Shown here: in pieces, positions 7,974 through 61,760 of the stretch | How positions within the stretch are numbered: the stretch's first letter is position 1 | Layout of the letters: each line of letters begins with the position of its first letter | Translations under genes and position numbers: made by a program | From: a bacterium | GTDB lineage: Bacteria > Patescibacteriota > Microgenomatia > Woykebacterales > RBG-16-39-9b | Length of the DNA: 64,000 nucleotides | Assembly: GCA_030704665.1 (NCBI GenBank) | Contig: JAUYID010000009.1 | Span: 256,832 to 320,831, forward strand | Reading direction: 5' to 3' | Notes under the pieces: model-generated | Database searches by the model: none | What the model saw: only the letters and a program-made list of their open reading frames with translations | What the model was told of the DNA's origin: nothing

Positions 7974-8603
7974 ATGAAGCGGAGGAAGGAACAGCTCATG
8001 AGAGGTCGAGTTATCTTCATCGGACTGGCCATGGTGGCCATCAGCGTTTTCGCCTTCGCCTGCGACGTCTACGGTGGATACGATGACGAGCAGACTCCGA
8101 CTCAGCAGGCAGCGATCGGCACGCTGGTTGCTCAGCAGACAGTGGCGCCGCTACCGACTCCGCGCCCGGTTGGCTACTGTGTGAAGGAGATCGCCAGTGG
8201 AGAGGTGGAACTTGGGGATCGGATGCGGATCACACCGGTCAAGGATTCGGATGGCAAGGATCAGGGTCTCAACCTGATCGCGAACTTTACGGTTCTGGGC
8301 ACCGACACGTTTCTCATCGCCAATGCCGCTCGGGGACCGCACTACCGGTTCCTGGTGAATCCGGCGTCAGTTGTGCCGGGGGATCAGTTGGTCAGCCCGA
8401 TAATCTTCGGTCCAGCCGTCGGTATGGTCGGACGTCTCATCGACGTTACCTGTGGGGAGGTCCCGATCTTGTACTTGGAGGTCTCGTTCTGGGATCTCTG
8501 TCACCAGGTTCCCGATGCGATTGTGGTCGAGGGTAAACCGCTCCTTGATGTGATCAAGACGGACTATCGTGTCGATCCCTGCAACATCGGCGGACCTGAG
8601 TAG
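7974..8603 (+). CDS. putative secreted lipoprotein, hypothetical (GC-rich islet)
   Basis: Internal Met of ORF 7848-8603. N-terminus MKRRKEQLMRGRVIFIGLAMVAISVFAFAC resembles a lipoprotein signal with lipobox Cys. Confidence 0.45.
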   Translation: MKRRKEQLMRGRVIFIGLAMVAISVFAFACDVYGGYDDEQTPTQQAAIGTLVAQQTVAPLPTPRPVGYCVKEIASGEVELGDRMRITPVKDSDGKDQGLNLIANFTVLGTDTFLIANAARGPHYRFLVNPASVVPGDQLVSPIIFGPAVGMVGRLIDVTCGEVPILYLEVSFWDLCHQVPDAIVVEGKPLLDVIKTDYRVDPCNIGGPE

Positions 8604-23542: not shown

Positions 23543-24001
23543 TTAATTTGATGTGTTGGCCTCGACTTTGATTTTGGTTTTGACCGAAGATTTATTTGAA
23601 TAGGAACTAGCACCGTCATTTGAGTTCGAACTTGAACTTGATTGGCAGTCCACACTGACAGAGACATCCCCACTTGAGGCTTCGTCCACTTCAACTGAAT
23701 CAGAAGGAACCACCTGCGTCACTCCATTTTTCGTCACCGTACAAGTTCCAGAACCAGTTGAATTGCTTGAATCATCGTTATTTTGGTCGTCGGTGTCTGC
23801 TGAGGTAGCTCCAGAAGCTGGTTTGGAAGAATCGGTTGCTTCTTTCGAGGATTGAGTAGCTGCCTTGTTGCCCAGCTTGGTCTCGTTGCTATTTTTGATC
23901 AACTGAGTTGAAAAAGCCGCTGCGATGAAAAGAAGAACAGCAGCAATGGTGATCGTGAGGCGCAGCCGATCGTTTCTTAAATTCCCCATAGTGTTTGGCA
24001 T
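23543..24001 (-). CDS. Ser/Thr/Asp-rich secreted or membrane-anchored hypothetical protein
   Basis: Signal/anchor LRLTITIAAVLLFIAAAFS followed by low-complexity S/T/D/N-rich sequence. Confidence 0.4.
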   Translation of the reverse strand: MPNTMGNLRNDRLRLTITIAAVLLFIAAAFSTQLIKNSNETKLGNKAATQSSKEATDSSKPASGATSADTDDQNNDDSSNSTGSGTCTVTKNGVTQVVPSDSVEVDEASSGDVSVSVDCQSSSSSNSNDGASSYSNKSSVKTKIKVEANTSN

Positions 24002-24097
24002 TATCCAACTTTGACCGGATCTTGTCAAAGGACAAGCGGGCTGGTGTTATAATGCTTGCTAGAAATACCTGTGGCGGGTAGTTCTTGGGGAGGAAAG

Positions 24098-28858: not shown

Positions 28859-29590
28859 ATGTCGGATCTGTTTTACTACCTACGGTACAACACTGTGGCG
28901 GGTGAGGACTGGTGGCTCTTCCGTATCGTGGCCTGGTACTGCCGCAGCCGCAGGATTGACCTGCCGGCAGGACGGTGCCACTTCAGCGAGATCATCTGCC
29001 TCTACGTCCCGATCTACGTCGCTCTCGGTCTGCTCTTCAAGCTGATCGTCGGCGTCATCTGGCCGCTTCTTCGCTTCGTGACCCGACCGCTCTGGATGCC
29101 AGTTCTTTGGTATCTGAGAAGGTTGGATGAAGAGTTCAGCCATAGGGCAATCCGCAGTTTAACCCTTGCCACCGTGGCGGTCCTTGGGTTGCTCTTCTAC
29201 ACGGGCGTCTCAATCGGCCTCGATCTTAGGGATGGAAGCCTGTCTGATGAAGGCGACGATGCCTCTGCAATGGAGGTGGCTCTGGTAGTGTTGGCCTTCT
29301 TCGGCTTTCTGACGGCGGAGTATATTCTTGTCTGGATCTATGATGCCGTTCGGCCGAGATTACAGCCAGCTTTTGAACTCGGTCACGAGGCCTCGGAAGC
29401 ACTGCATCGGCCCACGGTCCGCCAAGTTGGTGGTGTGGTTGTCTCGCCGTTCAAGATTGTGCCGGCGGGAGCTCGTTTCGGACGCGACTTCGGGGCTGTA
29501 ACGTTCAGTACAGTCCGCGGAGGTTGGCGGCGGACGGTTTGCCCGCGCTTGACTTACAGGTTCGACACGAGCAAGTACCGGCAGCAATAA
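28859..29590 (+). CDS. polytopic membrane hypothetical protein (GC-rich islet)
   Basis: 243 aa. GAGGAAGAGGG RBS. Several TM helices. Confidence 0.45.
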   Translation: MSDLFYYLRYNTVAGEDWWLFRIVAWYCRSRRIDLPAGRCHFSEIICLYVPIYVALGLLFKLIVGVIWPLLRFVTRPLWMPVLWYLRRLDEEFSHRAIRSLTLATVAVLGLLFYTGVSIGLDLRDGSLSDEGDDASAMEVALVVLAFFGFLTAEYILVWIYDAVRPRLQPAFELGHEASEALHRPTVRQVGGVVVSPFKIVPAGARFGRDFGAVTFSTVRGGWRRTVCPRLTYRFDTSKYRQQ

Positions 29591-33331: not shown

Positions 33332-33385
33332 AATGTCATCCTGAATTTATTTCAGTATGACCAACTGGATACTGAAACAAGCTAA
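33332..33385. repeat. MITE-like element, short variant
   Basis: AATGTCATCCTGAATTTATTTCAGTATGACC...CTGAAACAAG. Matches both ends of the 52866-52940 copy. Lies between tsf and frr. Confidence 0.45.
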
Positions 33386-37121: not shown

Positions 37122-38030
37122 ATGATGGCAATTGACTTACACACCCATACAATTTACTCAGACGGTGGTTTGGAACCAGAAGAACTGGTGAGAAAAGCCA
37201 AAGAGATTGGTCTTTCGGCCCTGGCCATTGCTGATCACGATTCTGTTTCAGCACTTGAAGAAGGGTTAAAGATTGCCCAAGAAGTTGGTATTGAGCTAGT
37301 TCCAGCACTGGAAATCAGCTCTTACCCTGACGAAGAAAACGAGTTTCACATTTTAGGTTACTTTATTGATTGGCAGAACAGCGTTTTAGTTTCGACCCTG
37401 AAGCACTTTCAAGAAGTCAGAGATAAGCGGGCGCACAAAATTGCCGAGCGCTTAAACGAGCTTGGCTATCAGGTTAGCTATGAAGAGATACGCAAACAAG
37501 CCAAAGGAACTATAGTTCAACCCCATGTCGCGGCGGCCGTGATTGGAAATCCCGCCAATGAGAAAAAGTTAAAACAAGAGTTTGGAGTTTCACCCAAAAC
37601 CGGAGATTTCATCCGCGAGCATTTGATCCAGGGCAAAGACGCTTACATCACGCGAGAAGCTCTCACTCCCAAAGAGGCGCTTGATTTGATTCACAAGGCA
37701 GGTGGAATTACTTCTTTGGCCCACCCATGCTGGAACTTGGTGAAAAAAGACTCAGCAAGCGGAGAATTAGTTTTTGACGATGCGGGCTTGAAGGAACTTG
37801 TTAAAATAGGTTTAGACGGGATTGAAGTTTATGCCCATCGGGAAAACGAAGCCGATACGAGAGCGTGCGTTGACCATTACTTGAAACTTGCTACCGAGTT
37901 AAATTTGGTTGCGTCCGGAGGAAGTGATTTTCATGGTTATGGATCGGCGGGGAAGAAGCTGGGTTTTGAGGATTTTTACCTTAAGGTGCCGGATGCGGTG
38001 TTGGATGAACTTAAGAAATTCAAACGATAG
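37122..38030 (+). CDS. PHP domain phosphoesterase
   Basis: 302 aa. DLHTHTIYSDG, AIADHDS and further His/Asp motifs of the PHP family. Confidence 0.7.
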   Translation: MMAIDLHTHTIYSDGGLEPEELVRKAKEIGLSALAIADHDSVSALEEGLKIAQEVGIELVPALEISSYPDEENEFHILGYFIDWQNSVLVSTLKHFQEVRDKRAHKIAERLNELGYQVSYEEIRKQAKGTIVQPHVAAAVIGNPANEKKLKQEFGVSPKTGDFIREHLIQGKDAYITREALTPKEALDLIHKAGGITSLAHPCWNLVKKDSASGELVFDDAGLKELVKIGLDGIEVYAHRENEADTRACVDHYLKLATELNLVASGGSDFHGYGSAGKKLGFEDFYLKVPDAVLDELKKFKR

Positions 38031-49860: not shown

Positions 49861-50418
49861 ATGGCAAAAATAATCATTGGTCTGGTTGGTCCTCCTGGAT
49901 CAGGGAAAACCTCAGCCGCAAAGTATTTAGAAAGCAAAGGCTTTGTGAATCTACGACTTTCTTCTGCTTTGGAACCTGAAATAAAAAAAAGGGGTTTGCC
50001 TTTGATTCGTGAAAGTTACCAAGATCTTGGGAACGAATGGAGAAAAGAAAAGATCGATTACCTCAGTGAGATTTTGTTTACGCAGATTGAAAAGCTACCA
50101 AAAGAAGCAAAAGTAGTGGTCGAGGGTTTTCGTAACCCAGGAGAAGTGGTACCGTTTAAAGAAAGGAGCAACTTTTTTCTAATTGGACTAGATGCTGGGG
50201 TTGAGGAGCGTTTCAAAAGAGTTAACTCATTGGGACGAGATCCTCAAAGTTGGGAGGAGTTTTTGGTACTTGAGAAACGTGACCAAGGAAATGATGAGCC
50301 TGAGTGGGGCCTGCAGGTAGCGAAAACTCTAAGTTTGGCTGATATCATTATTGATACTGGCAAAGACAAAACAGCTGTATTTACAGAAATAGAAAATTTT
50401 TTGAAAGGAATAAAATGA
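49861..50418 (+). CDS. P-loop nucleotide kinase-like protein
   Basis: 185 aa. Walker A GLVGPPGSGKTS. Adenylate/dephospho-CoA kinase-like size. Confidence 0.45.
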   Translation: MAKIIIGLVGPPGSGKTSAAKYLESKGFVNLRLSSALEPEIKKRGLPLIRESYQDLGNEWRKEKIDYLSEILFTQIEKLPKEAKVVVEGFRNPGEVVPFKERSNFFLIGLDAGVEERFKRVNSLGRDPQSWEEFLVLEKRDQGNDEPEWGLQVAKTLSLADIIIDTGKDKTAVFTEIENFLKGIK

Positions 50419-50855
50419 GTTTAAACGAAAAACTACAAGCAGACATGAAAGAAGCGATGATTGCTAAGGACGAGATGAGATTGTCCACGATTCGCTTTTT
50501 GCTCTCCGACCTTAATTACTTAAAAATCGAGAAACAAAGAGAACTGACCGACGAGGATGTTCTGGGTGCGATTGAAAAACAAGTCAAGCGCCACCGCGAA
50601 AGCATTGAAGGCTTTGAAAAGGGTGGGAGAGCCGAGATGGCGGAAAAGGAAAAAGCCGAGCTAGCTATCCTGCAAACTTATTTACCCGCGCAAATGAGTG
50701 AAGAAGATATACGCAAAGCGGTTGGTGAGGCGATTGCCTCATCTGGGGCTTCTTCAATTCAAGAGATGGGCAAAGTCATGGCTGCACTTTCTAGCCTTAA
50801 AGGCAAAGCAGACATGAGTGTTGTCAGTTCCATAGTTAAAGAAAAGCTTTCCTAG
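50415..50855 (+). CDS. yqeY: GatB/YqeY domain protein
   Basis: 146 aa with the YqeY family pattern. Confidence 0.7.
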   Translation: MSLNEKLQADMKEAMIAKDEMRLSTIRFLLSDLNYLKIEKQRELTDEDVLGAIEKQVKRHRESIEGFEKGGRAEMAEKEKAELAILQTYLPAQMSEEDIRKAVGEAIASSGASSIQEMGKVMAALSSLKGKADMSVVSSIVKEKLS

Positions 50856-51199
50856 ATTGTTTTGTTATTTTAAGCCTATTTAGAATTCTTTCTGTCACTT
50901 TTTAGAAAAGTGACCAAAACTTCCGCCAGGCTGCGTGCGCTAGCAAGATTTAAGTCGCTCAAGCAAAGTTGTTAAACTCGCCTTCGGCTCAAACAAAACA
51001 ACTTGTGCTAGGTCGCTTGGTTAAATCTTGCTTAAACGCGTACTCGCAATGGCGGTATAAGAAAATTTTAACTTCGCATTCACAATTCTTAATTCTGGAC
51101 TCACTTGTTTCCTTGACCCGAAAGGGTACAATTTTAGATGAGACATGGCAGTGTCTTCCGACTTACTTCGTTTTTGGCAGGTTTGCAGTATCACGAAGA

Positions 51200-52860
51200 A
51201 GCCCTAGTTAAAAAAGTAGGTCGGTTGAAGGGGTAGAAGGGTAGGGCAGATTTCCAGAGCAGCTGGTTTCTTGTTCTTTCCTAGGGGAGAACACGTCTGT
51301 TCGGTGTACACTCAATCAGCTGTTCTGTCGCATTGGTTTTCCCAAGGTTCAACTATCGGGTTCGAACGGGCAACCAAGGCAAAATGCGGCGAAGTGGGGG
51401 TTTTAGTGCTCAATTAGCCTTTGCTTCGCCGTTCCCCAAGGCAAACAATTGACCGCTTGCTTTTTCATTTTTCTAGTAGCATTATCTCAATAACGGTTTG
51501 TGGAACGGCCTCGAGTTCCGATTGGAAAAAGACTGATGTCTCTGTCCAAGTCCACGATATCAAGAGGCAAGGAGGTGCTGTCTAGCCAAGTTCTCGGCAT
51601 AGGCGTGTCCTGACAGGACGTGACTGTACTTCAGGACAATTCCCCCACCAGGGAATGGGCGGAACTGAATGACGTTTTGGGAGAGGCGTTGTTTGGTGCC
51701 CCAGAAGATGGTGACTGGAGAGGGCGGCTTTTCTCGAAAGTTACCATTGACTGTTCCTTACCTGACCTGATTTTTGCTTACTTTGTGGGCAAGTCTCAGA
51801 TCAGTTTCAATACGGTGAATCGGAGGGAGAGATGGATCTTATCTTGGGACTTTGAGCAAGGATGCTCCCGCGCGTAAGTTCCGAGCCCTCCATTCAGGCG
51901 AGAGCGAGTGTGTCCACGGATCCCCGAAATTCTTGACCACACCGCTCTCGCCCTCGCTCCTTTTTCCCCACTTGAATTTAAACAAAAAAGGTAGCATATT
52001 TAATTTGAAGGTCTGGTTGGGATCCGCATAACCGCACCAAACCTTTACCGTGTCCACACCTTGTGGCTAGCACGGGTGGATGCTCCTGACGGCCAGGAGC
52101 GTAGGTCTCAAGGAAGACAGGAGGCAGGGAAGAGTACGGCATTCGCGGAGGCTTGAGAGTACCAGTCAGGGTTTGATGGGATGCGGACCTTTCCCTGACG
52201 CTTTCCAGTTGGTGGAGTTTGGTTGCGAAGAAGAAGCACCAAAGCCATGGTGAGACTCCACCCAACTGCCAATTTCCTGATTCGATTTCGCTTGTCCGAA
52301 AAGCAGATCGGTCAGTGCGCAATAATTTCGGTTCCTCAAGGACGAGGAGTTTGAGAGCAGACGAAAGAAGGGCCAACCCTGAAGTCCCACCCCGCCACCT
52401 AGGACGTTTCAGGCCCTTCCTGCGGTTTCAAGCTGGCAGAAGCTGGCCCCCGCATATCCCCCCTCAAGGCGTCTGGTCTCAACCCCAAACCTTCAGGACA
52501 GGGGAGCGTGGTGTGACGATTTTGCGAATCGTTGCTTACGCCCCACGCTCCCCCTCGTCTAGTCTAAAAGCTTGCAATTTCCTTTCACAAAAGTTAAAAT
52601 TCAAACTGACAAGGGCATCTACGCCGCATCTCGCCGAAAGGGCGGGACCCGACGTTGCTTAACTAAGGTCGTCTTGGAATAGGACGAGCCGACAAAGAGC
52701 AGGGAAACCAAAGCAGGCCAGCCTCGACTAGCTCAGCTAGTCGAACTGAATTACCACAAAATAGATGCCTTTTTACGTGCCCGCCAATTTTGGCGAGGTA
52801 CGGTCAAAATCCCTGTGTGATTAATTTAAAAGTACCCTTTGAAAGGTTTTTAACGTGGCG
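51200..52860. other. ~1.6 kb GC-rich segment with no credible ORF (candidate structured RNA or decayed foreign DNA)
   Basis: All frames have only short stop-interrupted ORFs with junk-like translations. Contains long imperfect stems (e.g. GGCGAGAGCGAGTGTG...CACACCGCTCTCGCC around 51895-51955). Confidence 0.3.
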
Positions 52861-52865
52861 ATTTG

Positions 52866-52940
52866 TGTCATCCTGAATTTAATTCAGGATCTTCTGAAAA
52901 CGCCAGGTTAATTGGGTTCTGAAACAAGTTCAGAATGACA
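52866..52940. repeat. MITE-like palindromic element copy
   Basis: TGTCATCCTGAATTTAATTCAGGATC ... GTTCTGAAACAAGTTCAGAATGACA. Overlaps the first ATG of ORF 52935. Confidence 0.55.
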
Positions 52941-52955
52941 GAAGGAGCAATAAAA

Positions 52956-53414
52956 ATGGCTATGTTTAGTTTTTTCGGAAAAGGGTTTCGTGATCTCGAA
53001 ACCAAAATAGCAGAACTCATTACCAGCTTCGCCGGAAGTATGGCTTTTGTTTACATACATATTATTTGGTTTGGAGCCTGGATAATTTTCGCCAAGCAAA
53101 TTGGTGATACCTTTCCTTTTGGTTTGCTGACAATGATCGTCTCCCTTGAGGCAATTTTCCTTTCTACCTTGATCATGGTCAAACAAAACCGTCAGGCTGA
53201 GATTGATGCCCAAAGAGCTGAAGAAGAGGATGAAGAAAGAGAAGACATTGAAGAAGATATTGAGGATATTCAAGAGGATTTCGATGAGCTACAAAAAGAT
53301 CTTAGTGAAGTGCGTCGTCTCATTGAAAAAATTGAATCTCGAACTACTAGTTACGACCCTGTTTCCAAACCAGTGCCTTCTAGCATTCGAAACAAGAAAA
53401 AAGATTCCGCCTAA
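52956..53414 (+). CDS. DUF1003-like membrane protein with acidic coiled-coil tail
   Basis: AAGGAG RBS 8 nt before ATG at 52956. Two TM helices and an NRQ motif, then an E/D-rich tail. Confidence 0.5.
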   Translation: MAMFSFFGKGFRDLETKIAELITSFAGSMAFVYIHIIWFGAWIIFAKQIGDTFPFGLLTMIVSLEAIFLSTLIMVKQNRQAEIDAQRAEEEDEEREDIEEDIEDIQEDFDELQKDLSEVRRLIEKIESRTTSYDPVSKPVPSSIRNKKKDSA

Positions 53415-61169: not shown

Positions 61170-61760
61170 TCAGTATCCCCGACTGCCGTTGTGGCGGTTT
61201 CGGTCGAGTTTGAAGGCTTCTTCAAGGGTGGTTTCTCTTCTTCTCCGTGAATTGAAGCTGCCGTTGGTAGTACCCGGCCGAGGGTATTCGTTTTGGCGTC
61301 TTGATGGAACAACCAGAGACGACTCCCGGGTAAAGACCTCGTAACGGTGTCCGTCTGCAACAGTTGTCCCTCTGCGGCTTGCCTCGGTTAAGCGTTGACC
61401 ATCGACCCAAACCGCGGCTAGCATCCGCTGCCTGATTAGAAAGCGGACCGCGGTTGGCAGATAGATCAGGTCCAGACCGAAGACTGGAAACTCCTGTACT
61501 TCCGTCTGCCCACCTGCTTGGTGAACTACTACTTCTACCTTGCGGGTGAAGAAAAGCCGGTCACCTTCCTCGACTTTCCGTCTGACCACCTCACTTGATG
61601 GGGTAGAGAAGGAATCGAAGGCAACGACTTGGTCCAGGTCACCTGGGACTCTCAGTGGTTTGAAGAGTCTCCCGATTTCGACGCCGGCGCTGATTCTCAG
61701 GTCCACTCCAGGGCGCTCCGGTCCGAAGAGAACCGAGATGTTGACACTTGATCCAGACAT
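61170..61760 (-). CDS. hypothetical protein, paralog A of a two-gene pair (GC-rich islet)
   Basis: 196 aa. GAGAGGGG RBS. Shares EGD.LFFT.K and VWVDGQRLTE/VRVDGVVLTE blocks with 61923-62426. Confidence 0.45.
   Translation of the reverse strand: MSGSSVNISVLFGPERPGVDLRISAGVEIGRLFKPLRVPGDLDQVVAFDSFSTPSSEVVRRKVEEGDRLFFTRKVEVVVHQAGGQTEVQEFPVFGLDLIYLPTAVRFLIRQRMLAAVWVDGQRLTEASRRGTTVADGHRYEVFTRESSLVVPSRRQNEYPRPGTTNGSFNSRRRRETTLEEAFKLDRNRHNGSRGY

What the first reader, a model, noticed from the sequence alone, without database searches (positions are those of the whole stretch)
50856..52860. ~2 kb region after yqeY with no credible ORF, ~1.6 kb of it GC-rich and stem-rich: candidate large structured RNA or a decayed foreign islet
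All six frames are broken into short ORFs with low-complexity, junk-like translations. The region is nonetheless GC-rich, like the coding islets.

It contains several long imperfect helices. One is a 14-15 bp stem GGCGAGAGCGAGTGTG/CACACCGCTCTCGCC near 51895-51955. Another is GTCCTGACAGGAC. A ~100-nt nested hairpin region sits at 50925-51035.

I could not recognise RNase P, tmRNA, SRP, group I or group II hallmarks by eye.
Basis: seen in the sequence. Interest (0 to 1): 0.6.

Follow-up and report, generated by a model that had tools for sequence, protein, structure and literature searches.

The report
Chain of small structured RNAs, not one
The 2-kb gene-free stretch is real non-coding DNA in a tiny Patescibacteria (CPR) genome, but it looks like a row of separate small structured RNA elements, including a previously undescribed riboswitch-like leader in front of a membrane-protein gene, not one large RNA or a dead gene.

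Summary
Positions 50856-52934, between yqeY and a DUF1003 gene, have no credible ORF, no codon periodicity, no protein, Pfam or Rfam match, and fold better than shuffled sequence, mainly on the + strand.

Eleven related CPR loci keep the order yqeY-gap-DUF1003-cysS, but the gap ranges from 254 to 912 nt and holds different subsets of modules. The window, at 2079 nt, is the largest stack. Three modules have homologues and compensatory base changes:
- **A (50877-51070):** a REP/ERIC-like palindromic element found at other intergenic sites and in both orientations.
- **B (51469-51815):** an sRNA-like element with an AAGGAGG...UCUAGC motif. That motif occurs at this locus in five lineages and nowhere else in the 152 loci fetched.
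- **D (52611-52774):** a three-way-junction RNA behind a conserved TTGCAA-17-TAAAAT promoter. Its closing helix runs straight into a U-run. It is present upstream of DUF1003 in nine lineages, with 99% of cells paired and 7 of 13 pairs changed on both sides.

D is most likely a transcription-attenuating leader and a riboswitch candidate. About 1.1 kb (51076-51468 and 51816-52570) is lineage-specific and unexplained. A decayed gene, a single giant RNA, an intron, a T-box and a split tRNA all lack support.

The parts
50877..51070 (+). Module A: a palindromic element. It has a short AT-rich hairpin (arms 50889-50902 and 50906-50919), then a long imperfect hairpin of about 135 nt (50923-51056) with conserved unpaired motifs AAGUCGCUCA and GGUCGCUUGGUU.
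   Evidence: Folding z is -4.95 on the + strand and -4.0 on the - strand. A family profile finds 7 distinct copies: the window; L120 twice, one of them inverted; L030; L117; L025; L022. Six of the 7 sit right after the stop codon of a same-strand gene, but behind different genes. RNAalifold keeps 18 of 29 predicted pairs through changes on both sides in 4 sequences (14 of 31 in 3 sequences).
51076..51468 (+). X1: lineage-specific spacer with several hairpins (for example 51254-51335 and about 51385-51437). It contains promoter-like hexamers around 51108-51140 and 51449-51485, read by eye only.
   Evidence: Folding z is -2.78. No period-3 signal. No homologue in any fetched locus. Function unknown.
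51469..51815 (+). Module B: sRNA-like structured element. It has a 5' branched hairpin domain, a purine tract AAGGAGG and UCUAGC (51569-51586), a hairpin AUUCCC-CCACCA-GGGAAU (51639-51656), and CCAGAAGAUGG (51701-51711) pairing with CCAUUGACUG (about 51744-51753).
   Evidence: nhmmer matches L021 8466-8788 at the same locus, with E from 2e-5 to 8e-5. On the two-sequence alignment, 20 of 63 predicted pairs are changed on both sides and kept. The pattern AAGGAGG-N(1-30)-KCTAGC occurs once in the window (0.07 expected) and once each in L021, L025, L112 and L117. Every occurrence is in the gap after yqeY on the + strand, and there are none elsewhere in the 152 loci fetched.
51897..51966 (+). It looks like a terminator and may mark the 3' end of the B transcript.
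   Evidence: Sequence. It appears in the minimum-free-energy fold of 51488-51970, z -4.18. The simple terminator scan did not call it because the loop exceeds 8 nt.
51967..52570 (+). X2: lineage-specific GC-rich segment (55% GC), unassigned. It contains a hairpin 52362-52424 with a CCCCGCC loop and a strong hairpin with arms at 52501-52511 and 52543-52553, just before the D promoter.
   Evidence: Folding z is -3.76 on the + strand and -2.19 on the - strand. No period-3 signal. Similarity to relatives is only marginal: L110 at E=0.046, and the covariance model R2 of the relatives' 'RNA-2' scores 6.9 bits, E about 0.05, at 52324-52428.
52572..52600 (+). Sigma-70-type promoter TTGCAA-17-TAAAAT for motif D and the DUF1003 gene.
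   Evidence: Found by the promoter scan. The same TTGC(A/T)N-17/18-TA(A/G)AAT arrangement is read directly in L021, L022, L027, L110, L112, L115, L117, L119 and L120 (sequences).
52611..52774 (+). Module D: riboswitch-like leader. P1 is 52613-52620 with 52763-52769, then U5 at 52770-52774. P2 is 52630-52635 with 52641-52646. P3 is 52667-52673 with 52683-52690. The invariant joining strands are ACGCCGC, CCCGACGU and CAGGGAAAC. The window alone has an extra inserted hairpin at 52724-52744.
   Evidence: Nine distinct members, all just upstream of DUF1003 and on the same strand. The held-out member L120 scores 109 bits with model R1. 99.1% of cells are paired, 7 of 13 pairs are changed on both sides, and 0 of 500 shuffles reach the observed score; slid controls give 35-55% paired (MAFFT alignment version). 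P3 is a hairpin of different sequence in every member. No Rfam match at E<=10.
52871..52935 (.). Two operator-like inverted repeats TCCTGAA-N5-TTCAGGA between D and the DUF1003 start codon: a perfect copy at 52871-52889 and a degenerate copy at 52917-52935.
   Evidence: Five matches in the window at up to 2 mismatches, against 0.43 expected. A perfect copy sits at the same place in L022.

Best explanation
The yqeY-DUF1003 spacer is a permissive intergenic site in this Patescibacteria lineage where several independent, small, structured non-coding elements have accumulated on the + strand. The window carries the largest stack seen.

1. **Module A** is a REP/ERIC-like palindromic element at the 3' end of yqeY. 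It probably acts as a hairpin in the 3' UTR, as a terminator or exonuclease barrier, and it is mobile or recurrently gained (inferred).
2. **Module B** belongs to a clade-wide sRNA-like family marked by a Shine-Dalgarno-like AAGGAGG tract and UCUAGC. Its function is unknown. My guess is that it sequesters or presents an anti-SD-complementary or GGA-rich tract (speculative).
3. **Module D** is the 5' leader of the DUF1003 (and possibly cysS) transcript.
   - *Shown:* a conserved promoter is followed within about 10-45 nt by a three-way-junction RNA, and the junction's closing helix P1 abuts a U5-7 run.
   - *Inferred:* the folded junction is itself an intrinsic terminator. When P1 and its extension form, presumably stabilised by a ligand or protein bound at the invariant junction nucleotides, transcription stops before DUF1003. 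When the invariant CGCCG segment instead pairs locally with CGACG, P1 is weakened and RNA polymerase reads through.
4. **X1 and X2**, the remaining 1.1 kb or so, are lineage-specific structured filler or further young RNAs of unknown role.
For: **Non-coding status.**

**Modularity.**
- Gene order is conserved, but gap size and content vary: 254, 278, 390, 615, 616, 631, 724, 733, 757, 872 and 912 nt in relatives, against 2079 nt in the window (sequences).
- D stands alone in L115 and L119.
- B plus D occur in L021.
- Two A copies plus D occur in L120.
- Other RNAs (RNA-1 and RNA-2) occur in L025, L112 and L117.

**Module A.**

**Module B.**

**Module D.**
- Covariation.
- Detection of a held-out member.
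- Single copy per locus and no hit elsewhere in 635 kb.
- Minimum-free-energy folds of all members close with P1 next to the U-run.
- L117 keeps the promoter directly in front of DUF1003 although D is deleted. L025 lacks both D and DUF1003. Both facts fit D being a cis-acting leader rather than a separate gene.
- The distance from the U-run to the DUF1003 start is about 30-70 nt in six of the nine members, which leaves little room for another promoter (coordinates with 107).

**Strand.** + strand folds are better, and G-U pairs in A are conserved on the + strand.
Against: - There are no expression data. All promoters except the one for D are read by eye, and the scan found only D's.
- Family B rests on one significant pairwise homology plus a short shared motif.
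- The covariation counts for A and B come from 2-4 sequences and from structures predicted on those same alignments.
- X1 and X2, 55% of the region, have no homologue. They could be part of longer transcripts that include B.
- D could be a stand-alone sRNA that ends at its own terminator.
- No ligand can be proposed, because DUF1003 has no known function.
- In the window and in L022 the D-to-gene distance is 110-180 nt and contains operator-like palindromes, so a second promoter there is possible.
Confidence: 0.6

Rival explanations
1. A single very large (about 1-2 kb) novel structured RNA, comparable to GOLLD, ROOL or OLE, spans most of the gap. Modules A, B, X2 and D would be domains of one transcript.
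For: All signals lie on the + strand, and folding is better than shuffles along most of the gap. Only one textbook promoter and no textbook terminator are called inside. Nothing known matches, so novelty is possible.
Against: Relatives with up to 81% identical YqeY keep only some modules in gaps of 254-912 nt. A occurs at other loci and inverted. D has its own conserved promoter and occurs alone. More than half of the sequence has no conservation at all. Only short, imperfect long-range complementarity was found: 17 nt at 82%.
Confidence: 0.1
2. The gap is largely functionless debris: nested insertions of MITE/REP-like palindromic elements and their decay products at a tolerant site. Only D is under selection.
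For: A behaves like a dispersed palindromic repeat, with different loci and both orientations. Gap content turns over quickly between relatives. X1 and X2 have no homologues. L022 has a GIY-YIG ORF inserted at the same site.
Against: B and the relatives' RNA-1 and RNA-2 are conserved at this locus with compensatory changes and terminators. There is only one A copy in 64 kb and no internal repeats in the gap. A genome of about 0.94 Mb would not be expected to keep 2 kb of junk (contig length; the expectation is general knowledge about reduced genomes).
Confidence: 0.2
3. A decayed protein-coding islet: a pseudogenised foreign or orphan gene.
For: The window does contain GC-rich orphan genes without Pfam hits, so an orphan that decayed would leave no homologue to find. 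X2 has 55% GC.
Against: There is no period-3 signal in any 300-nt window, while all orphan ORFs tested have z of 7-20. There are no protein hits for any open frame of at least 35 aa, no Pfam hits and no tblastx hits. The folding bias favours the + strand, and A, B and D show RNA-type covariation.
Confidence: 0.05
4. D is not a leader but an independent trans-acting small RNA of about 165 nt that ends at its own intrinsic terminator. DUF1003 would then be transcribed from elsewhere.
For: D has a promoter, a compact fold and a terminator, which together make a complete sRNA gene. The window and L022 have 110-180 nt plus operator-like repeats between D and the gene.
Against: Linkage and orientation to DUF1003 are strict in 9 of 9 members. 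About 30-70 nt lie between the U-run and the start codon in six of the nine members. L117 uses the same promoter directly for DUF1003 with D deleted. D is absent where DUF1003 is absent (L025).
Confidence: 0.2

Closest known systems
Transcription-terminating riboswitches and attenuator leaders (multi-stem junction aptamers such as the purine, TPP or c-di-GMP-I classes, with intrinsic-terminator expression platforms)
   Same: D lies between a promoter and the regulated gene. It has a junction of covarying helices with invariant joining strands, and it ends in a helix plus U-run. It is a single copy, strictly linked to one gene family.
   Different: D matches none of the 4227 Rfam families. The closing helix P1 of the junction appears to be the terminator stem itself rather than a separate downstream hairpin. 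The ligand, if any, is unknown, and the regulated gene has no known function. So far D is seen only in one Patescibacteria clade.
REP, ERIC, BOX and Correia-type intergenic palindromic elements (MITE-like)
   Same: A is an imperfect palindrome of 130-190 nt that folds into a long hairpin. It is found in intergenic DNA at different loci, usually right after a stop codon, in both orientations, and in sequence variants that share their ends.
   Different: Copy number is low: one in 64 kb here, and 0-2 per 3-16 kb locus in relatives. No target-site duplication or transposase was looked for or found. The interior keeps pairing through compensatory changes between species, which suggests selection on the RNA or DNA hairpin.
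Large bacterial ncRNAs (GOLLD, ROOL, OLE, HEARO, raiA)
   Same: They are long, GC-rich, stem-rich, ORF-free stretches in small or unusual genomes.
   Different: No covariance-model match. The stretch is not conserved as a unit, and its pieces occur independently in relatives.
Protein- or ribosome-titrating sRNAs with exposed GGA/SD-like tracts (for example CsrB/RsmZ-type sponges). This comparison is recalled from general knowledge, not tested.
   Same: B and the relatives' RNA-1 carry an invariant GGGAAGGAGG-like purine tract next to a structured domain and a terminator.
   Different: There is only one tract per RNA. It is predicted to be partly paired. No CsrA gene or binding data were examined.

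Membership tests
Any Rfam 15 family (including GOLLD, ROOL, OLE, HEARO, raiA, 6S, SRP, RNase P, tmRNA, riboswitches, ribozymes) | Covariance-model score at or above the family's gathering threshold | tested here: not met
   The window gives only 4 tRNAs, all elsewhere. The region at E<=10 gives 3 chance-level hits of no more than 20 bits. D alone gives 0 hits. Relatives' loci give 0 hits at gathering threshold and only noise at E<=10.
Group I / group II intron, or intron-split tRNA gene (known in Patescibacteria, PMC13011429) | An intron core model match, and flanking exon halves: a tRNA T-arm plus an acceptor stem complementary to an upstream 5' half | tested here: not met
   No Intron_gpI or Intron_gpII hit at E<=10. 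ARAGORN finds nothing. My own scan finds no T-arm on the + strand and only poor non-canonical candidates on the - strand. Caveat: PMC13011429 reports divergent introns that RF00028 misses, but without exons there is nothing to splice.
T-box leader (considered because cysS lies downstream) | Stem I with a specifier codon, the conserved T-box sequence with a UGGN bulge in an antiterminator, and a competing terminator | tested here: not met
   No RF00230 hit at E<=10 in the window's gap or in L117's gap. No hit at gathering threshold in the seven relatives' loci scanned, which include L025 and L112. The GGGUGCUACCGG-like strings seen by eye in relatives pair with a downstream CUUGUCGG strand instead.
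Riboswitch (generic definition) | A conserved structured aptamer with covariation, located in the 5' UTR of the regulated gene | tested here: met
   D has 9 members, 99% of cells paired, 7 of 13 pairs changed on both sides and 0 of 500 shuffles reaching the score. It always lies between a conserved promoter and DUF1003.
Riboswitch (generic definition) | An expression platform that can switch (terminator against alternative pairing) | tested here: inconclusive
   P1 plus U5-7 is present in all members. An alternative local pairing, ACGCCG with CGACGU, is predicted, but it involves only invariant bases, so there is no covariation for or against it.
Riboswitch (generic definition) | Direct, selective binding of a small-molecule or ion ligand | not testable with these tools
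   This needs in-line probing or ITC. DUF1003 gives no hint of a ligand.
REP/ERIC/MITE-like palindromic repeats | An imperfect palindrome present at multiple unrelated intergenic sites and in both orientations | tested here: met
   Seven distinct copies lie behind four different genes, one of them inverted.
REP/ERIC/MITE-like palindromic repeats | Many copies per genome, or target-site duplications | tested here: inconclusive
   There is only one copy in this 64-kb window. The rest of the roughly 0.94-Mb genome is not available here. Target-site duplications were not examined.
Pseudogene / decayed coding islet | Residual codon periodicity or detectable similarity to proteins | tested here: not met
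   Period-3 z is at or below 0 everywhere. There are 0 hits against 5.8 billion proteins at E<=10, 0 Pfam hits and no tblastx hits.
6S RNA (considered for the rod-like A and for the relatives' RNA-1) | A rod of about 180 nt with a closing stem, a large central bubble and a terminal stem; RF00013 match | tested here: not met
   No RF00013 hit at E<=10. A occurs in two copies and both orientations in L120, which does not fit a housekeeping RNA gene. The rod shape alone is not diagnostic.

The most novel reading that the evidence does not exclude
Motif D is a new riboswitch class. Its three-way junction doubles as the terminator and senses an unknown metabolite or ion to control the orphan membrane protein DUF1003 in Patescibacteria. 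The neighbouring B / RNA-1 family is a new conserved regulatory sRNA of these reduced genomes. Identifying D's ligand would assign a function to DUF1003.
Probability: 0.3. Interest if true: 0.65.

Novelty: new member of a known kind. Interest (0 to 1): 0.45.

Why it matters
Patescibacteria have tiny, densely packed genomes and almost no experimentally studied regulatory RNA. A conserved, covarying leader in front of a widespread protein family of unknown function (DUF1003) is a concrete and testable handle: finding its ligand would suggest what the protein does. The locus also shows that even reduced genomes keep a fast-evolving 'RNA nursery' at a fixed intergenic site, a pattern that family-based annotation cannot see. 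For the scan itself, the lesson is that a long ORF-free, stem-rich stretch need not be one giant RNA. Comparing syntenic loci split this one into modules.

Tried and rejected
- **Rfam.** I searched at gathering threshold and at E<=10 on the window, on D alone and on relatives' gaps. Nothing was found.
- **Protein origin.**
  - Pfam on six-frame translations found nothing.
  - All open frames of at least 35 aa, concatenated and searched against 5.8 billion proteins, gave nothing at E<=10.
  - tblastx against relatives found nothing.
  - Alternative genetic codes gave no long ORF.
- **Repeat or mobile origin of the whole stretch.**
  - There is no second copy in the window.
  - There are no internal duplications.
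  - There is no phage or plasmid match.
- **tRNA, tmRNA or split tRNA with an intron.** Nothing was found.
- **T-box upstream of cysS.** Rejected.
- **Small ORF behind the AAGGAGG tract.** There is no start codon in L021. In the relatives' RNA-1 the start codon sits 1-2 nt after the tract, and the reading frame shifts relative to the conserved terminator hairpin (read from the sequences).
- **Homology of X2 to the relatives' RNA-2.**
  - The nhmmer profile gave no hit.
  - Model R2 gave only 6.9 bits with filters off, although it does detect L023 (E=1e-4).
- **Genome-contig scan with YqeY.** It returned only distant, non-syntenic genomes.
- **Metagenome scan with a YqeY alignment.** It was swamped by distant relatives and yielded only L030 as useful.
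- **D pattern in viral contigs.** It gave 32 hits, none confirmed by model R1, so they are chance matches.
- **Literature.** There are no papers linking DUF1003 to a riboswitch.
Full report
**Setting**

The window comes from a Patescibacteria (CPR) genome. The YqeY protein encoded at 50415-50855 is identical to one on a 938-kb NCBI contig labelled 'MAG: bacterium', and its relatives include proteins labelled Woykebacteria and Patescibacteria. The finding covers the 2079-nt spacer between yqeY and a DUF1003 membrane-protein gene (52935-53414; Pfam E=4e-22). That gene is followed by cysS.

Yes.
- The longest stop-free frame is 161 codons, and it overlaps a promoter and an RNA helix.
- No alternative genetic code opens a long frame.
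- No ORF passes a codon-usage score.
- A Fourier test for codon periodicity gives z of 0 or below for the whole spacer, for each sub-segment and for every 300-nt window. yqeY, DUF1003, cysS, recR and five orphan GC-rich ORFs elsewhere in the window give z of 7 to 29.
- The period-3-free run 50701-53100 is more than twice as long as any other in the 64 kb.
- GC content is only modestly raised: 51.7% over 51201-52800 and 55% over 51997-52570, against 46.4% for the window.
- Folding beats dinucleotide shuffles, mostly on the + strand: z of -4.95, -2.8, -4.2 and -3.8 for successive pieces. For 150-nt windows the mean z is about -1.6 inside and about -0.1 in the coding flank (my arithmetic).

**What it is not**

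- No Rfam family matches at gathering threshold or at E<=10. That covers the large ncRNAs, introns, ribozymes, riboswitches, 6S, SRP, RNase P and tmRNA.
- ARAGORN finds nothing.
- Prompted by a paper on hidden intron-split tRNA genes in Patescibacteria (PMC13011429), I scanned for tRNA halves and found none.
- Six-frame Pfam is empty.
- All open frames of at least 35 aa, concatenated and searched against 5.8 billion proteins, give nothing at E<=10.
- tblastx against relatives' loci is empty.
- There is no phage or plasmid DNA match.
- The spacer is not repeated elsewhere in the window and has no internal duplications.

**Comparison with relatives**

I fetched the loci of YqeY proteins that are 66-81% identical. 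All keep recR-(kinase-like)-yqeY-gap-DUF1003-cysS, except that L025 lacks DUF1003. The gap is 254 nt (L115), 278 (L119), 390 (L027), 615 (L023), 616 (L110), 631 (L120), 724 (L022, which includes a GIY-YIG ORF), 733 (L021), 757 (L025, measured to cysS), 872 (L117) and 912 (L112). The window's 2079 nt is the extreme. The contents differ between lineages, which lets the window's spacer be split into modules.

**Module D (52611-52774, promoter 52572-52600)**

- blastn first flagged 52609-52718 as 84% identical to L021. That is more conserved than the flanking genes, which are 70-72% identical.
- Nine distinct lineages carry the element, always once, just upstream of DUF1003 and on its strand.
- All nine, plus L117, have a TTGC(A/T)N-17/18-TA(A/G)AAT promoter in front of it (sequences).
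- The RNA is a junction of P1, P2 and P3.
  - P1 is GGGCAUCU with AGAUGCC, extended in some members to 14 bp.
  - The invariant joining strands are ACGCCGC, CCCGACGU and CAGGGAAAC.
  - A U5-7 run follows directly after the 3' strand of P1.
- On the model-fitted alignment, 99.1% of cells pair, 7 of 13 pairs change on both sides, and no shuffle reaches the score. Sliding the partner by one to three columns drops pairing to 35-55%. The MAFFT alignment gives 96%.
- P3 is a hairpin of unrelated sequence in every member.
- A model built from eight members found the ninth, L120, at 109 bits. It found nothing else in 635 kb of loci.
- Thirty-two pattern hits in viral contigs were all rejected by the model.
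- L117 has lost D but keeps the promoter directly in front of DUF1003. L025 has lost both.

I therefore read D as the 5' leader of DUF1003. Because the junction's closing helix abuts the U-run, the folded leader should itself terminate transcription, which makes it an attenuator or riboswitch candidate. The switching mechanism is inference: competition between the P1 extension and a local ACGCCG/CGACGU pairing. The ligand is unknown, because DUF1003 has no known function.

**Module A (50877-51070)**

- It consists of a short AT-rich hairpin followed by a long imperfect hairpin of about 135 nt.
- nhmmer finds homologues upstream of recR in L117 (E=1.8e-14) and L025, after a hydrolase gene in L022 (E=2e-10), after yqeY in L030, and twice in L120, once inverted.
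- RNAalifold keeps 18 of 29 pairs through changes on both sides in four sequences.
- Conserved G-U pairs favour the + strand.
- Six of seven copies directly follow a same-strand stop codon.
- This is the behaviour of a REP/ERIC-like palindromic 3'-UTR element, although the copy number seen here is low.

**Module B (51469-51815)**

- It is homologous to L021 8466-8788 at the same position (E from 2e-5 to 8e-5).
- Twenty of 63 predicted pairs are compensated.
- Its AAGGAGG-N-UCUAGC signature occurs exactly once in the window (0.07 expected). It also occurs once each in L021, L025, L112 and L117, always in this gap on the + strand, and nowhere else in the 152 loci fetched.
- In L025, L112 and L117 the signature ends a rod-like 'RNA-1' of about 200 nt with its own terminator.
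- RNA-1 is followed there by a roughly 370-nt 'RNA-2', which has covariation and a detectable relative in L023.
- No conserved small ORF follows the SD-like tract, as read from the sequences.

B thus belongs to a clade-wide sRNA-like family of unknown function.

**The unexplained remainder**

They fold better than chance. They may be young RNAs, extensions of B's transcript, or debris.

**Verdict**

The stretch is non-coding and truly structured. The evidence favours a stack of independent small elements over one large RNA, and it argues against a decayed gene. The most valuable product is motif D, an undescribed riboswitch-like leader. It is a new member of a well-known kind of element, of moderate interest until transcripts and a ligand are shown.

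Noticed in passing
window 52871-52889, 52917-52935, 33339-33357, 6739-6757, 37396-37414; L022 2681-2697: An operator-like inverted repeat TCCTGAA-N5-TTCAGGA gives 5 matches at up to 2 mismatches, against 0.43 expected. A perfect copy sits upstream of DUF1003 in both the window and L022. It is probably the binding site of a transcription factor with a small regulon.
   Followed up: partly
window 5029-5592 (-), 7848-8603 (+), 23543-24028 (-), 28859-29590 (+), 61170-61760 (-): These ORFs, several of them in locally GC-rich parts of the window, have no Pfam hit but strong codon periodicity, z of 7-20. ORF 5029-5592 starts with a signal-peptide-like hydrophobic stretch and ends at a strong terminator.
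   Followed up: partly
L025 6480-7165, L112 5480-6165, L117 4040-4700, L023 8751-8902: In other lineages the same yqeY-downstream gap holds two different structured RNAs. RNA-1 is rod-like, about 200 nt, and ends in GGGAAGGAGG...GUCUAGC plus a terminator. RNA-2 is about 370 nt, with a 12-bp GGGGAGUAGU/ACUACUCCCC stem and a CCCCGCA loop. Both show compensatory changes and no Rfam match.
   Followed up: partly
L022 2022-2312: A 96-aa GIY-YIG (homing-endonuclease-type) ORF is inserted in the same yqeY-DUF1003 gap in one relative. This fits the site being tolerant of insertions.
   Followed up: no
L022 about 2420-2455 and L120 about 975-1005: An extra small covarying hairpin lies between the promoter and motif D in two lineages: ACCGUU-UAGGCA-ACGGU in L022 and GGUAUCGU-CUAGGCA-ACGAUAC in L120 (sequences).
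   Followed up: no
all nine D members, immediately 3' of the U-run (window 52775-52781): A conserved short motif (A)YGUGG or GUUGG, always containing a GUG, AUG or UUG triplet, follows the U-run of motif D (alignment). The short frames that start there differ in length and sequence. Its role is unexplained: it could be part of an alternative pairing or a tiny uORF.
   Followed up: no
window 3835-4617 (-): A cluster of four tRNA genes gives the only Rfam hits in the 64-kb window.
   Followed up: no
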